Shown here piece after piece: positions 47,630 to 50,600 of a stretch of 64,000 nt of DNA. The position numbers are program-made. The stretch lies in assembly GCF_988242995.1 (NCBI RefSeq), contig NZ_OZ547043.1. The stretch is one strand, 5' to 3'. Position 1 is the stretch's first letter. Every line of letters starts with the position of its first letter.

Positions 47630-50600
47630 TTAAACAAAAAAACGAAGCAAGCATACGCCTGATGGCGGTCCAAAAAAAAGAGTCATCTTGCCTAAGAGTA
47701 TTGGCAGGATGGTGAGATTGAGCGACAATCGAGTTACACCGTCGCTTAAAGTGACGGCATAATAATAAGAATATGAAATTCCTCTTTGACGGGCCAATAG
47801 CGATATTGGCCATTTTTTTAACGCAACATCTGCGGCAAATTCCCTTCTCCATACAGGTGTAGTGCACCGACTGCGACCACATAGCGCCCCGGCGGCATGG
47901 CGCATAATTTGTCCCGCCAGGCGAGATTTCGCTGATGCATCAGCACATCGTACAGCGACTGACTGAACGTATTAGGCAGCGTTATTTCATTATTTTGCGG
48001 CGGCGCATTCAGCCACCAGCTCATCATTTGTTGCAGCAACCGTGCATTGGTGTGCCAGTGGGTCAGCGTATCGTCCAGCAGCGCCAGTCCGTTGTCAGGG
48101 AGCTGGAGCAACATGGCAATCTGGTTTTCTGCCCCTTCCAGTTCAATCACGGGTTTATGTTGTTGCTTCGCCGCCTGCAATAGCTGGTAATCGATACCGT
48201 ATTCTGCCCGCAGCCCCAGTTTTTGTGCCTGCGTCGCCTGAAGAACCATCGCGATTTGCCACAGCGGTTGGGTAGAAAAGAGTGAGGTAGAAATGCCCAT
48301 CTCCTGGCTAATGTGCTGCAGGTTTTGGAGTTGCTCCTCGCTAATGCGCTCTTCCAGCGCCTCGCAGGCAGGCAAATTAGCAAAAGGCGTATCGCTGGTG
48401 GAAACATCCGCCTCGACGATCAGCGCATCGGCGTTTTTGAGCTTTTTGAGCAAACGGGTGGGCAGGGGAGCCATATCGTGGCTGCCCATATGAATACTGC
48501 CAATCAGATGAAAATGGCGATTGCCGGGAAGAGAGATATCGATAGCAGGCCAGGTGTAATGATTACCGCGCAGCGCGGCCCAAAGCGTTTTTACCCGGTA
48601 CAACAGATCCATACGACCTCCCTTTGTGAAATATCATGCTAGCGCGCGGGGAGGGATGGCGCAAATGGAGTTATGAGGCTTGTTCAGTGGTAGCTTAAAT
48701 ATGATCGAAAAATTGTTTTTGCTTTGAAACGAAAGACTGCACCGGTGTTGGTGGCGTCAAAATCGCCGAGGCGTTCCCTGAAGGCCGGGGCAGCCCACAT
48801 GGATGTGGGCTGAGGGCGCGTTTTACAGGGATGTTACCTCGCGCCCGACCCGGTAGCCGCAAGGGATAAGCTGAGGGTACCGCGCAGCGGCGATTTTGTT
48901 CGCCAGAGCCCGGGGGTGCAGGGGGCGGCGGCGATTGGCCGCCCCCTGCGCGCTCCCTGCGCCAGTCACTTTATATGGCATGACTCATAAAAGGAGCGCA
49001 ACAAGAACTGGATCTCACAAACGCATTAAGTAAATACCAATCACTCTTTCGGTTTAAACCGCAGCAACCGGTTAGCGTTACTCACTACGGTAATCGACGA
49101 GAGCGCCATTGCCGCTCCGGCAACCACCGGGTTAAGCAGTGTTCCAGTGAACGGCCACAAAATACCGGCGGCGACCGGAATACCAATGCTGTTGTAGATA
49201 AACGCACCGAGCAGGTTCTGCTTCATATTGCGCAGCGTTGCGCGGGAAATCGCGAGCGCATCTGCAACACCCATCAGGCTATGGCGCATCAGGGTAATCG
49301 CCGCGGTTTCAATGGCAACATCACTGCCGCCACCCATCGCAATACCGACATCCGCCTGGGCCAGCGCTGGCGCGTCGTTAATGCCGTCGCCCACCATTGC
49401 CACCTGACGTCCTTCACTTTGCAGACGTTTGATCGCTTCGGCTTTACCGTCCGGTAGCACCCCGGCTATCACCTCATCAATCCCTGCTTCTTTGGCGATC
49501 GCATTGGCGGTGGTTGGGTTATCCCCGGTTAGCATCACCAGACGATATCCCGCTTTATGCAGGCGTTGCAGCGCCGCCACGCTATCACTACGCAACGGAT
49601 CGCGTACAGCCAGCAGGGCTACCGCTTTCCCGTCAACCGCCAGCAGCACAGGCGTTGCCCCTTGCGATGCCTGAGCAGTAATCTCCGCTTCGATAGCTTT
49701 GGTATCAACCTGTTGCTCATTTAACAACGCCTGATTACCCAGCAACAACGCATGACCTTCTGCTTCACCGCTCACACCCAGCCCGCGCAATGTGCGGAAA
49801 CCGTTGACCTGCGGTAGCTGCATATCACCTGCTTTATCGAGGATCGCCCGTGCCAGCGGGTGGCTGGAACCTTGCTCCAGCGCCGCCGCCAGACGCAATG
49901 CTTGCGCTTCATCAACATCAGCAAATGTTTTTACTGCGACAACCTGCGGCTTCCCTTCGGTCAGCGTCCCGGTTTTATCGAACACCACGGTGTCGAGCGT
50001 ACTGGCGCGTTGCAGCGCGTCGGCGTCCCGCACCAGCACACCAAACTCAGCCGCCCGCCCGACGCCCGAAATAATCGACATCGGCGTCGCCAGTCCCAGC
50101 GCACACGGACAGGCGATAATCAGCACCGTGGTGGCAATCACCAGGGTATAGACAATCTGCGGTGCCGGACCAAAGAAATACCAGATTGCCGCACTGATCA
50201 GCGCAATGACTACCACCACCGGCACAAACACAGCGGAGATTTTATCCGCCAGTTGACCGATTTCTGGCTTGCTGCTCTGGGCCTGGCGCACCATGCGAAT
50301 GATCCGTGACAGCGTAGTATGGCTGCCGACCGCACTGGCACGAAACAGCACACTGCCGTCCTGTACCACTGTCCCGGCATGGACGCTATCGCCTTCGCCT
50401 TTTTGCTGCGGGATAGGTTCGCCCGTCAGCATCGCTTCATCCAGCCACGCTTCGCCTTGAGTAATCTCACCATCTACCGGCACACGGTCGCCGGTCGTCA
50501 GGCGCAGTAACATACCTGGCTGAACATCTGCCAGCGGCACGTTTTTTTCACCTTCGTCGGTGACCAGGCGCGCCGTCGGTGGGGTTAAATCGAGTAATTT

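What the first reader, a model, noticed from the sequence alone, without database searches (positions are those of the whole stretch)
48613..49040. ybaP-copA spacer lacks a ybaQ-like gene and carries a GC-rich cluster of nested palindromes
Seen in sequence: the 428-bp interval between ybaP and copA has no ORF of 60 aa or more on either strand. It contains three strong hairpins (48790-48811, 48813-48845, 48918-48947) flanked by imperfect inverted repeats (around 48753 and 48887). Recollection: K-12 has a small XRE/HigA-like gene, ybaQ, at this position and a spacer of roughly 1 kb. Inference: either ybaQ is an islet missing in this strain, or a MITE-like or structured-RNA element occupies the site. 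The element does not match the REP or ERIC consensus as I recall them.
Basis: partly seen in the sequence, partly recalled or inferred. Interest (0 to 1): 0.45.

Follow-up and report, generated by a model that had tools for sequence, protein, structure and literature searches.

The report
TRIP1e repeat replaces ybaQ cassette
The odd GC-rich palindromes between ybaP and copA are a copy of TRIP1, an already catalogued E. coli repeat of unknown function. Comparison across enterobacteria shows that it keeps a conserved single-strand fold with two hairpin loops that look like binding sites for the global regulator CsrA.

Summary
The 428-bp ybaP-copA spacer (48613-49040) has no ORF of 60 aa or more, lacks ybaQ, and carries the hairpins described. 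It is not new: 48736-49006 is TRIP1e, the ybaP-copA copy of the TRIP1 repeat family (Rudd 1999; Li et al. 2024, PMC10888264). About 6.5% of complete E. coli genomes carry this allele. The rest carry higB/ybaQ(higA), mostly with REP units. The change is a whole-spacer replacement that reaches into the last three copA codons, not a simple deletion.

My additions are these. TRIP1 relatives occur in Klebsiella, Kluyvera, Pseudocitrobacter, Pseudescherichia and unidentified metagenome lineages, at non-orthologous sites. A three-domain fold is supported by covariation: 98.8% of cells are paired and 23 of 68 pairs show compensatory changes. G·U outnumbers A·C by 250 to 9, which marks the window + strand as the folded strand. 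Both central hairpins carry C-ANGGAY-G hexaloops in 52 of 52 representatives collected without reference to the loops. That is the CsrA/RsmE consensus. Rfam gives only a sub-threshold TwoAYGGAY match.

My best guess, at about 0.35, is a structured RNA module that binds CsrA. Against it: no promoter or terminator, random orientation, and no peak in published CsrA CLIP-seq data. The main rival is a REP-like structural or selfish repeat.

The parts
47818..48612 (-). ybaP (TraB/GumN family), left flanking gene
   Evidence: 264-aa ORF. Annotated as ybaP in the identical genome GN25.
48613..48672 (.). Spacer segment shared by all ybaP-copA alleles (the region upstream of ybaP)
   Evidence: Invariant or nearly so in alignment A1 of four alleles. 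BLAST gives 100% identity to the higBA-type allele over 48613-48672.
48673..48735 (+). Allele-specific AT-rich left flank. 48673-48705 aligns loosely with the higBA promoter/operator region of other alleles. 48713-48735 is a 5' extension shared with other TRIP1 copies.
   Evidence: A1. BLAST against reverse-type TRIP1a copies extends to 48713. The conserved GCTnTTTAAnnAAAGAC-like leader is visible in A4. The junction 48660-48760 is unique to 357 of 5426 genomes.
48736..49006 (+). TRIP1e core, a copy of the TRIP1 dispersed repeat. The folded strand is the window + strand.
   Evidence: 94.1% identity over 271 bp to K-12 TRIP1a, 92.6% to TRIP1c and 91.9% to TRIP1d. The position matches Li et al. 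2024: 124 bp from the ybaP start and 38 bp from the copA stop. 64.2% G+C.
48752..48905 (+). Domain I. The outer stem P1 (48752-48765 with 48891-48905) and P2 (48766-48778 with 48863-48876) enclose a multi-branch core with P3/P4, hairpins A and B, and a small hairpin at 48880-48890.
   Evidence: RNAalifold on 49 sequences, with pair counts: P1 has 6 of 12 pairs with compensatory changes and P2 has 3 of 10. This region gives the sub-threshold TwoAYGGAY match at 48757-48896.
48791..48812 (+). Hairpin A: hexaloop AUGGAU (48799-48804) closed by C48798-G48805
   Evidence: Perfect 10-bp arms. CA, GGA and G are invariant in 52 of 52 metagenome representatives found without reference to the loops. The stem covaries: CG 31 / GC 20, CG 27 / GC 25, GC 42 / AU 10.
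48814..48846 (+). Hairpin B: GGGCGCG/CGCGCCC base, internal loop, and an upper stem with hexaloop AGGGAU (48827-48832) closed by C48826-G48833. UUACAGGGAUGU matches 11 of 12 positions of the CsrA SELEX consensus RUACARGGAUGU.
   Evidence: The loop is C-A-N-G-G-A-Y-G in 52 of 52 representatives, with N = G 22, U 17, C 6, A 6 and one gap. The closing pair covaries, GC 27 / AU 25. The SELEX consensus is quoted in PMC4347634.
48913..48954 (+). Domain II: very GC-rich hairpin (core 48921-48929 with 48938-48946, loop GGCGAUUG)
   Evidence: 12-nt perfect arms. 4 of 9 core pairs show compensatory changes, for example C-G to A-U or U-A.
48950..48999 (+). Domain III: GCGCUCC (48950-48956) pairs with GGAGCGC (48993-48999) around a variable AT-rich loop. 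The pairing sequesters the Shine-Dalgarno-like AAAGGAG.
   Evidence: MFE fold. 48956/48993 is C-G in 39 sequences and U-A in 7. The register is ambiguous, because an alternative pairing with 48958-48963 is also compatible.
48773..48790 (+). Direct repeat 1 of 2 (GTTCCCTGAAGGCCGGGG). Its partner lies at 48898-48915, 125 bp away. These are the likely end-points of the recurrent 125-bp internal deletion seen in TRIP1b-type copies.
   Evidence: the repeat finder family D1, spacing 125. TRIP1b lacks an internal 125 bp. The deleted forms in L013 and in the plasmid copy L011 break at these positions.
48898..48915 (+). Direct repeat 2 of 2 (GTTCGCCAGAGCCCGGGG)
49007..49040 (+). Allele-specific AT-rich right flank, a weakly conserved 3' extension of TRIP1. 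It replaces the hairpin that follows copA in all other alleles.
   Evidence: A1. A weak A-rich tail is conserved after GGAGCGCAAC in A4. 35.3% G+C.
49041..49049 (-). Last two sense codons and the stop codon of copA. They differ synonymously from K-12 (AAA GAG TGA against AAG GAA TAA), so the right-hand break-point of the replacement lies inside copA.
   Evidence: A1 columns 1196-1210 and the sequence itself.

Best explanation
Shown. The interval holds TRIP1e, the ybaP-copA copy of the TRIP1 repeat. In about 6.5% of E. coli genomes it replaces the higB/ybaQ(higA) cassette, its REP units and the hairpin downstream of copA. TRIP1 is not specific to E. coli. It is an Enterobacteriaceae-wide family of about 270 nt (about 330 nt with flanks). 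One strand, the window + strand, keeps a three-domain secondary structure through compensatory changes. The structure carries two adjacent hairpins whose hexaloops are invariably C-ANGGAY-G.

Inferred. The element most likely works as RNA. When the + strand is transcribed, domain I presents two high-affinity CsrA sites 28 nt apart. That spacing would let one CsrA dimer bridge them. The RNA would then either act as a small decoy or recruit CsrA to whichever transcript contains it. In this window the + strand runs in the ybaQ direction, from the ybaP upstream region towards the 3' end of copA. Read-through from copA would produce only the antisense strand.

Whether, when and from which promoter the + strand is made is not known. 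The confidence given is for the inferred mechanism. The identity as TRIP1e and the conserved fold are near-certain.
For: - **Identity.** The core is 94.1% identical over 271 bp to K-12 TRIP1a. Its position matches the published TRIP1e. 5425 of 5426 E. coli genomes hold copies, with a median of 3 places per genome. The TRIP1e junction is found in 357 of 5426 genomes.
- **Replacement.** See alignment A1.
- **Distribution.** Relatives occur in Klebsiella (13 places in one chromosome), Kluyvera, Pseudocitrobacter, Pseudescherichia and 'Enterobacter sp. ENT03'. They also occur in divergent metagenome lineages only 75-82% identical to any named copy.
- **Structure, named genomes.** 68 pairs are 98.8% paired. 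23 pairs show changes on both sides, against 13.7 +/- 1.7 in shuffles (0 of 500 reach the observed value) and 1-7 in slid controls.
- **Structure, independent set.** In the metagenome set, 92.6% of cells are paired against 85.3% in shuffles, and 25 pairs covary.
- **Strand.** G·U cells number 250 and A·C cells 9. The alifold energy is -203.7 on the + strand and -187.9 on the - strand.
- **Loops.** CA, GGA and G are invariant in both hairpins in 52 of 52 representatives collected with a pattern that did not constrain the loops. The N position takes all four bases and the stems covary.
- **Motif match.** The loops equal the CsrA/RsmE consensus (A/U)CANGGANG(U/A), and hairpin B matches 11 of 12 positions of SELEX RUACARGGAUGU.
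- **Rfam.** The only match is TwoAYGGAY at 31.5 bits, E = 0.008 for the 901-nt search. An RMfam analysis proposed that TwoAYGGAY is a CsrA sponge.
- **Background.** Single CANGGAYG words occur at chance frequency in the window: 14 observed, against about 16 by my own arithmetic. Only the TRIP1 site has a long stem (8 contiguous pairs) and a second site within 28 nt.
Against: - No sigma-70-like promoter or intrinsic terminator accompanies the element in four E. coli copies.
- Orientation relative to the neighbouring genes is random in tandem spacers, 14 against 11. Read-through therefore cannot supply the + strand at many copies, including this one.
- The published E. coli K-12 CsrA CLIP-seq peak list contains no TRIP1 sequence or coordinate. 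dusC and ybjE are scored 'No'. Reads mapping to both TRIP1a and TRIP1c, which are 94% identical, may have been discarded; I did not check this.
- No 3' ends were mapped at TRIP1a or TRIP1c in a Term-seq data set.
- Presence and absence vary between strains, and a form lacking both hairpins (TRIP1b) persists in about half of E. coli genomes.
- The score is below the TwoAYGGAY gathering threshold.
- The fold and the strand asymmetry would fit a single-stranded DNA intermediate equally well.
Confidence: 0.35

Rival explanations
1. TRIP1 is a REP/BIME-like extragenic structural repeat with no specific RNA partner. It spreads and persists at the 3' ends of genes in either orientation. It acts, if at all, as generic hairpins that protect or terminate mRNA 3' ends, as cruciform DNA, or as a substrate for homologous recombination. 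On this reading the conserved fold, the conserved loops and the strand asymmetry reflect what a single-stranded intermediate needs to be copied or moved, for example recognition by an unidentified enzyme. They would not reflect a cellular RNA function.
For: - The element always abuts at least one gene 3' end and is never found between divergent genes, 0 of 39.
- Its orientation is random, and it flips at a fixed locus between strains (Li et al.).
- Sites are not orthologous between genera.
- Copy number varies from 1-5 in E. coli to 13 places in K. pneumoniae.
- Klebsiella copies alternate with REP arrays and occur in tandem. A divergent subfamily is followed by BoxC-like repeats, and K-12 has BoxC-like DNA where other strains have TRIP1d.
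- There is no promoter, terminator, CLIP-seq or Term-seq signal.
- In this window it replaces the hairpin downstream of copA, so it could serve as the copA 3' end structure.
- TRIP1-mediated chromosomal inversions are documented.
Against: - A multi-branch structure of about 270 nt with many invariant unpaired or loop nucleotides is far more elaborate than REP, ERIC or BoxC.
- The two loops are an exact copy of a well-defined RNA-protein recognition motif.
- The strong excess of G·U over A·C argues against symmetric hairpin function on both transcript strands.
- No transposase or RAYT-like gene is linked to the element. Neighbouring genes were compared only with the E. coli flanking proteins.
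- No relative was found in phages.
Confidence: 0.3
2. TRIP1 encodes a structured non-coding RNA whose function is unrelated to CsrA, for example a ribozyme-like or protein-scaffold RNA. The GGA loops would then take part in tertiary contacts or bind another factor.
For: - Covariation supports the fold and there are many conserved non-helical nucleotides, such as GGCCGGGGC, GACCCG, AAGGGAUAAG and the domain II loop GGCGAUUG.
- No Rfam family covers the element.
Against: - The same lack of expression signals applies as for the best explanation.
- No alternative partner is suggested by any result.
- The loops fit CsrA too exactly for this to be the default reading.
Confidence: 0.12
3. The element is a MITE, a non-autonomous transposon with terminal inverted repeats that inserted between ybaP and copA.
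For: - The element is dispersed, intergenic and non-coding, with variable copy number.
- A 17-nt, 82% inverted repeat brackets it (48723-48739 / 49042-49058).
Against: - The bracketing repeat has its right arm inside copA. I estimate (my own calculation) that a match of this quality is expected about 0.1 times by chance in the region.
- The 5' and 3' termini of the family share only GTTG.
- There is no target-site duplication and no clean empty site. At ybaP-copA and at alx-sstT the alleles differ by whole-spacer replacement.
- No transposase is associated with it.
Confidence: 0.05
4. A simple loss of a ybaQ islet, with ordinary REP units or chance palindromes left behind.
For: One E. coli allele (CFSAN061770) does lack ybaQ through a plain deletion, leaving a 171-bp spacer.
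Against: - The window carries 368 bp (48673-49040) that are absent from the ybaQ-type and deletion alleles.
- This DNA is homologous to TRIP1 copies elsewhere and has no similarity to the K-12 REP units.
- The fold z-score is -5.9 and the sequence is conserved across genera.
Confidence: 0.01

Closest known systems
TRIP1 repeats of E. coli (TRIP1a-c, Rudd 1999; TRIP1d/e, Li et al. 2024, Genes 15:236, PMC10888264)
   Same: This is TRIP1e. It has the same locus, length (about 266 bp), G+C content (64%) and identity to TRIP1a (94%). It is found in a small minority of strains, always in this orientation.
   Different: Nothing differs at the level of the element. The published work covers only E. 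coli, predicts single-sequence 'double-Y' folds and proposes no mechanism. Shown here are the spread to other genera, covariation, the folded strand, the CsrA-type loops, the roughly 30-nt flank extensions and the replacement of higBA.
TwoAYGGAY RNA motif (Rfam RF01731; Weinberg et al. 2010)
   Same: A long outer stem encloses two adjacent hairpins whose terminal loops carry A-Y-G-G-A-Y. The full-length model aligns to 48757-48896 (+) at 31.5 bits, E = 0.008. Both are orphan motifs, and both fit the CsrA site model.
   Different: The score is below the gathering threshold of 43 in every copy tested, at 27.6-31.5 bits. Loop B is ANGGAY, not AYGGAY. TRIP1 has extra helices in domain I plus domains II and III, is GC-rich, and lies in Enterobacteriaceae. 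It should be treated as an architectural analogue, not a member.
CsrA/RsmA-sequestering sRNAs (CsrB, CsrC, RsmX/Y/Z) and dual-site CsrA targets
   Same: GGA motifs sit in hairpin hexaloops closed by C-G and match (A/U)CANGGANG(U/A) and RUACARGGAUGU. The two sites are 28 nt apart. From memory of Mercante et al. 2009, this is within the range in which one CsrA dimer can bridge two sites.
   Different: There are only two loop sites, plus two GGA motifs that are paired in the model. CsrB has about 18-22 (from memory). No recognisable promoter or terminator is present, there are several dispersed copies, and there is no CLIP-seq peak. It is not homologous to CsrB or CsrC, because no Rfam hit to those families was found.
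REP/BIME, ERIC/IRU and BoxC extragenic repeats
   Same: All are extragenic, palindromic and GC-rich, sit next to gene 3' ends in either orientation, are absent between divergent genes, and occupy the same hot-spot spacers as alternative alleles.
   Different: There is no sequence similarity to the REP units of the K-12 allele. TRIP1 is 5-8 times longer, has a multi-branch fold with covariation, and has a far lower copy number in E. coli.

Membership tests
TRIP1 repeat family (TRIP1e) | High nucleotide identity to TRIP1a over about 265 bp (the paper gives 94%) | tested here: met
   94.1% over 271 bp to the K-12-type aqpZ-lysO copy; 92.6% to TRIP1c; 91.9% to TRIP1d
TRIP1 repeat family (TRIP1e) | [quoted passage not shown] | tested here: met
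   Those distances give 48737-49002. The BLAST limits are 48736-49006.
TRIP1 repeat family (TRIP1e) | G+C content of 62-65% and a very stable predicted fold | tested here: met
   64.2% G+C. -144.8 kcal/mol, z = -5.9. The paper gives an ensemble energy of -149.59 for TRIP1e; I obtained -148.99.
TRIP1 repeat family (TRIP1e) | Several dispersed copies per E. coli genome at fixed loci | tested here: met
   5425 of 5426 genomes have copies, with a median of 3 places. The loci aqpZ-lysO, alx-sstT, dusC-mdtQ and putP-efeU were verified.
TwoAYGGAY RNA (RF01731) | Score at or above Rfam's gathering threshold (43 bits) | tested here: not met
   31.5 bits in the window; 30.6, 27.6 and 29.9 bits in other copies. 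Klebsiella and ENT03 copies do not reach E <= 1.
TwoAYGGAY RNA (RF01731) | Two terminal loops with AYGGAY inside an outer stem | tested here: inconclusive
   Loop A is AUGGAU here, and is A(U/G)GGA(U/C) across the family. Loop B is AGGGAU here, with Y at the second position in only 23 of 52 representatives. The outer stem is present and covaries.
CsrA-binding RNA (CsrB/RsmZ-like decoy or dual-site target) | GGA motifs in hairpin loops that match the CsrA consensus | tested here: met
   Two C-ANGGAY-G hexaloops, invariant in 52 of 52 representatives. Hairpin B matches 11 of 12 positions of RUACARGGAUGU.
CsrA-binding RNA (CsrB/RsmZ-like decoy or dual-site target) | Physical binding by CsrA in vivo or in vitro | tested here: not met
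   The published K-12 CLIP-seq peak table holds no TRIP1 sequence or coordinate. Caveats: one growth condition, and reads mapping to more than one copy may have been dropped. In vitro binding cannot be tested with these tools.
CsrA-binding RNA (CsrB/RsmZ-like decoy or dual-site target) | A discrete transcript with its own promoter and terminator | tested here: not met
   No sigma-70-like promoter or intrinsic terminator on the folded strand in TRIP1e, TRIP1a, TRIP1c or TRIP1d. No mapped 3' ends.
REP/BIME | Sequence similarity to the roughly 35-nt REP consensus | tested here: not met
   BLAST with word size 7 of the spacer against the K-12-type spacer, which holds three REP units, matches only 48613-48684.
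ERIC/IRU | Similarity to the 127-bp ERIC consensus | not tested
Identity with TRIP1 makes the question moot.
MITE | Terminal inverted repeats and a target-site duplication; a filled and an empty site that differ by the element only | tested here: not met
   The termini share only GTTG. The bracketing 17-nt inverted repeat reaches into copA. The alleles at ybaP-copA and alx-sstT are whole-spacer replacements.
Protein-coding gene or type I toxin-antitoxin (as turned out for Rudd's QUAD and LDR repeats, from memory) | A conserved small ORF | tested here: not met
   The ORFs are 55 aa or shorter. Single-nucleotide indels between subfamilies break every frame (A4).

The most novel reading that the evidence does not exclude
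TRIP1 is an unrecognised family of structured RNAs. It is about 270 nt long, has three domains, occurs across Enterobacteriaceae at 1 to at least 13 copies per genome, and has two full copies in E. coli K-12. It is absent from Rfam. Its invariant twin C-ANGGAY-G hexaloops would make it a dispersed CsrA-binding module. It would act either as a decoy in trans or as a portable cis element that puts any transcript reading through it under CsrA control. It would be an enterobacterial counterpart of the orphan TwoAYGGAY motif. In this strain, replacing higBA by TRIP1e would place such a module against the 3' end of copA.
Probability: 0.3. Interest if true: 0.7.

Novelty: already known. Interest (0 to 1): 0.45.

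Why it matters
As a locus, this is a published repeat copy and an ordinary example of allelic turnover in an E. coli spacer. The value lies in the family. TRIP1 has had no proposed function since 1999.

The comparative data here turn 'a GC-rich repeat' into a testable object. They give a defined strand, a fold supported by covariation, and two loops that are textbook CsrA sites. If CsrA binds, E. coli K-12 and Klebsiella would have an overlooked component of the Csr network. The TwoAYGGAY motif would also gain a functional analogue.

If CsrA does not bind, TRIP1 is still an unusually elaborate extragenic repeat. Its strand-specific conservation and its inversion in place at fixed loci would then need another explanation.

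Tried and rejected
- **REP units.** Rejected by BLAST against the REP-bearing K-12 spacer.
- **Coding potential.** ORFs are 55 aa or shorter and frames are broken by indels.
- **Rfam membership.** No family reaches its gathering score in the spacer. TwoAYGGAY is sub-threshold in every copy tested.
- **Clostridial pattern matches.** I checked whether the clostridial matches from the genome scan were true TwoAYGGAY RNAs. They were not, so they are chance matches.
- **Promoter and terminator scans.** Four TRIP1 copies gave nothing on the folded strand. By eye I also looked for sigma-54 and sigma-E type hexamers and for a Chi site. GTTGGTGG is one mismatch from GCTGGTGG. None was convincing and none was conserved.
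- **Empty-site and target-duplication analysis.** It failed at alx-sstT because K-12 carries a BoxC-like replacement rather than an empty site.
- **Phage origin.** No match in 50,697 phage records.
- **Plasmid hits.** These are chromosomal fragments or chromosomes mislabelled as plasmids.
- **CsrA CLIP-seq and Term-seq supplements.** Both were negative for TRIP1a and TRIP1c.
- **Taxon of the most divergent metagenome subfamily.** Not resolved. Identity to any named copy is at most 82%, and there is no close plasmid-database match.
- **Ascertainment bias in the first genome scan.** The scan fixed CATGGATG, ANGGAYG and GGGATAAG by construction. Loop conservation was therefore re-measured on a second scan anchored only on the outer stem.
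Full report
**1. The observation**

The window is E. coli DNA with the gene order ushA-ybaK-ybaP-[spacer]-copA-glsA. ybaP ends (that is, starts on the - strand) at 48612, and the copA stop codon begins at 49041. The spacer is therefore 48613-49040, 428 bp. No ORF inside it exceeds 55 aa.

The core is 64% G+C and sits between AT-rich flanks. It folds far better than shuffled sequence, with z = -5.9 on the + strand and -4.7 on the - strand.

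**2. What occupies the site**

I ran a megablast of 48400-49300 against 5,426 complete E. coli genomes. Only 347 genomes align across the whole query. The others match the flanks only and are annotated with ybaQ (a HigA-family antitoxin), sometimes preceded by a frameshifted RelE/ParE-family toxin gene.

Alignment of four alleles shows the following:

- All alleles share 48613-48672 and the copA coding sequence.
- Everything between, 48673-49040 in the window, is allele-specific.
- The K-12 type has ybaQ plus three REP units and a hairpin just after copA. A second type has higB'-higA. A third is a plain deletion with a 171-bp spacer.

The last three copA codons differ synonymously in the window allele (AAA GAG TGA against AAG GAA TAA). 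The right-hand break-point of the replacement therefore lies inside copA. The left junction (48660-48760) is present once in each of 357 genomes, at 99% identity or more in 353 of them. RefSeq annotates nothing there.

**3. It is a dispersed repeat, and a known one**

The inner part of the spacer matches elsewhere in 5,425 of 5,426 E. coli genomes, with a median of three places per genome. Mapping the copies gave four other loci:

- aqpZ-lysO, 94.1% identical over 48736-49006
- alx-sstT, 91.9%
- dusC-mdtQ, 92.6%
- putP-efeU, an internally deleted copy

A literature search identified these as TRIP1a, d, c and b. The ybaP-copA copy is TRIP1e of Li et al. 2024 (PMC10888264). That paper describes it as 265 bp long, 124 bp upstream of the ybaP start, 38 bp downstream of the copA stop, 94% identical to TRIP1a, present in 232 of 6,725 genomes, and always in one orientation. 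These distances reproduce my coordinates.

The element is therefore already known. The paper reports single-sequence RNA folds and TRIP1-mediated inversions but proposes no mechanism. No other paper in the searchable library mentions TRIP1a-c.

**4. Beyond E. coli**

BLAST against the plasmid collection found relatives at 83-87% identity in Klebsiella pneumoniae, K. aerogenes and K. variicola. Many of these records are mislabelled chromosomes, and one chromosome holds 13 places. The summary counts also list one Citrobacter and one Pantoea record that I did not inspect. Nothing was found in phages.

A pattern scan of one genome per species found about 45 true copies. They lie in Escherichia (coli, albertii, whittamii and unnamed species), Klebsiella, Kluyvera, Pseudocitrobacter, Pseudescherichia vulneris, 'Enterobacter sp. 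ENT03' (7 copies) and two unnamed Enterobacteriaceae. That pattern fixed three sequence blocks, so it biases conservation estimates.

I therefore ran a second scan of metagenome contigs anchored only on the outer stem. They contained 79 distinct domain-I cores and 100 distinct full-length elements, which cluster into 52 groups at 96% identity. About 23 of these groups are only 75-82% identical to any named copy.

Outside Escherichia, none of the copies lies next to orthologues of the E. coli flanking genes. The family has therefore spread separately in each genus.

**5. A conserved single-strand structure**

RNAalifold on 49 sequences predicts three parts:

- Domain I (48752-48905) has a long outer stem enclosing a multi-branch core with two adjacent hairpins.
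- Domain II (48913-48954) is a very GC-rich hairpin.
- Domain III (48950-48999) is a stem that sequesters the Shine-Dalgarno-like AAAGGAG.

Of 68 pairs, 98.8% of cells are standard pairs and 23 pairs show changes on both sides. Column shuffles give 13.7 +/- 1.7 such pairs, and 0 of 500 reach the observed value. Slid controls give 1-7. Projected onto the independent metagenome set, 92.6% of cells pair against 85.3% in shuffles, and 25 pairs covary. Hairpins A and B and the inner stems show near 50:50 swaps such as C-G/G-C and G-C/A-U. The register of domain III is ambiguous.

Deviations from Watson-Crick pairing are overwhelmingly G·U on the window + strand, at 250 cells against 9 A·C. The alignment also folds better on that strand, at -203.7 against -187.9. 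The folded strand is therefore the + strand, the same direction as ybaQ in K-12. This fits RNA. It would also fit a strand-specific single-stranded DNA intermediate.

**6. The loops**

In the 52 unbiased representatives, hairpin A reads C-A-(U36/G16)-G-G-A-(U43/C9)-G. Hairpin B reads C-A-(G22/U17/C6/A6)-G-G-A-(U28/C24)-G. CA, GGA and the closing G are invariant in all 52, while the stems beneath them covary.

This is the CsrA/RsmE recognition consensus (A/U)CANGGANG(U/A). The window's hairpin B, UUACAGGGAUGU, matches 11 of 12 positions of the CsrA SELEX consensus RUACARGGAUGU, whose GGA lies in a hairpin loop. The two GGA motifs are 28 nt apart.

Single CANGGAYG words occur at chance frequency in the window, with 14 observed against about 16 by my own arithmetic. 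Only the TRIP1 site has a long stem and a nearby partner.

Rfam's only match is the orphan TwoAYGGAY motif, covering 48757-48896 (+) full length at 31.5 bits, with E = 0.008 for that search and a gathering score of 43. Other copies score 27.6-30.6 bits. An RMfam study had proposed that TwoAYGGAY is a CsrA sponge because of these same loops. TRIP1 is an architectural analogue of that motif, not a member.

**7. Evidence against an expressed CsrA-binding RNA**

- Consensus scans find no sigma-70 promoter or intrinsic terminator on the folded strand in TRIP1e, a, c or d.
- Among 39 copies with both neighbours called, 14 lie co-oriented between tandem genes, 11 lie anti-oriented between tandem genes, 14 lie between convergent genes and none lies between divergent genes. 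The element always abuts a gene 3' end but is indifferent to the direction of transcription. In this window, read-through from copA would make only the antisense strand.
- The same locus holds the element in either orientation in different strains or species: aqpZ-lysO, dusC and alx-sstT. Li et al. give the counts.
- The E. coli K-12 CsrA CLIP-seq peak table contains no TRIP1 sequence or coordinate.
- A Term-seq data set lists no 3' end there.
- Reads from the 94%-identical TRIP1a and TRIP1c copies may have been dropped as multi-mappers, so these negatives are soft.
- TRIP1b, which lacks both hairpins, persists in about half of E. coli genomes. The missing 125 bp equals the spacing of the direct repeats at 48773-48790 and 48898-48915.

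**8. Company it keeps**

Klebsiella-type copies are flanked by REP units and can alternate with REP arrays. One metagenome contig holds three copies about 654 bp apart, and a K. pneumoniae spacer holds two about 437 bp apart. The divergent subfamily is followed by BoxC-like repeats. K-12 has BoxC-like DNA at alx-sstT where other strains have TRIP1d. TRIP1 thus shares the hot-spot spacers used by the classical extragenic repeats.

**9. Verdict**

The identity is TRIP1e, and I regard that as near-certain. The element is already known.

For mechanism, the most specific feature of the family is the pair of invariant CsrA-type hexaloops on a fold supported by covariation. I therefore commit to a structured RNA module that binds CsrA, at about 0.35. 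I consider in vitro binding more likely than a demonstrated biological role. The main rival, at about 0.3, is a REP-like structural or selfish repeat whose fold serves its own propagation or generic 3' end functions. A CsrA gel-shift and a strand-specific Northern blot would separate the two.

Noticed in passing
window 1892-2015, 17265-17361, 33995-34059, 41982-42059, 47736-47819: Rfam matches at gathering score elsewhere in the window: STnc490, small SRP RNA, the dnaX frameshift element, naRNA4 (CssrE) and sroB. sroB lies just upstream of the ybaP 3' end.
   Followed up: no
window 49041-49049; L001-L003: The last two sense codons and the stop codon of copA differ synonymously between the TRIP1e allele (AAA GAG TGA) and all ybaQ-type alleles (AAG GAA TAA). 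The allele was probably imported by recombination with a break-point inside copA.
   Followed up: partly
window 48673-48705; L002 574-640: The left flank aligns loosely with the higBA promoter/operator region of the higB-bearing allele, which reads TTGTGC-17 nt-TACAAT with palindromes. The window has TTGTTC-14 nt-TATGAT pointing into TRIP1e. This hints that the TRIP1e allele derives from a higBA-bearing ancestor and may keep a crippled promoter for the + strand.
   Followed up: partly
L001, L002, L003 (ybaP-copA spacer in other E. coli): At least five alleles exist at this spacer: higB(frameshifted)-higA; ybaQ with varying numbers of REP units (match spans of 1064-1266 bp); a plain deletion of ybaQ (171-bp spacer, strain CFSAN061770); and TRIP1e.
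   Followed up: partly
L005 vs L007/L009 (aqpZ-lysO); L012 vs L054/L079/L083 (dusC); L008 vs L084 (alx-sstT): TRIP1 is found in both orientations at the same locus in different strains or species. The inverted unit includes about 25-35 nt beyond the canonical ends. I found no flanking inverted repeat that would explain an inversion in place.
   Followed up: partly
window 48723-48739 and 49042-49058: A 17-nt, 82%-complementary inverted repeat brackets the element. Its right arm is the end of the copA coding sequence. By my own estimate it is of borderline significance, expected about 0.1 times in the region.
   Followed up: partly
L129 1842-3500; L014 1440-2233; L132: In Klebsiella-type DNA, TRIP1-like copies occur in tandem and alternate with arrays of REP units (GCCGGGTGGCGGC...CCTTACCCGGCCTAC). 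L129 has three copies about 654 bp apart, and L014 has two about 437 bp apart.
   Followed up: partly
L127 4526-4923 (K-12 alx-sstT) and 3' flanks of the divergent metagenome subfamily (e.g. L197, L201): BoxC-like repeats (CCCTCACCCTAACCCTCTCCCC...GGGGAGAGGG) occupy the K-12 alx-sstT spacer where other strains have TRIP1d. They also follow the divergent TRIP1-like copies.
   Followed up: no
L012 2962-3045: The small membrane protein gene yohP (27 aa, hydrophobic) lies convergent to TRIP1c, about 50 bp from its 3' end. It is not associated with other TRIP1 copies.
   Followed up: no
L011 (42-kb plasmid pZ1323HEC0475-2), L108, L023, L078, L033: A chromosomal ybjX-ybjD-aqpZ-lysO-hcp-hcr block, with an internally deleted TRIP1a, sits on a 42-kb E. 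coli plasmid. Several non-enterobacterial genome bins (Desulfacinum, Sporobacter, Bacillus) contain TRIP1 contigs that are probably enterobacterial contamination. L033 is a copA-TRIP1 junction with a TRIP1c-type 5' flank, that is, a 1c/1e recombinant.
   Followed up: no
Ga0153917_1000059 (L196-L198): One 128-kb metagenome contig of an unidentified organism carries at least four divergent TRIP1-like copies. This suggests a genome with a much higher copy number than E. coli.
   Followed up: no
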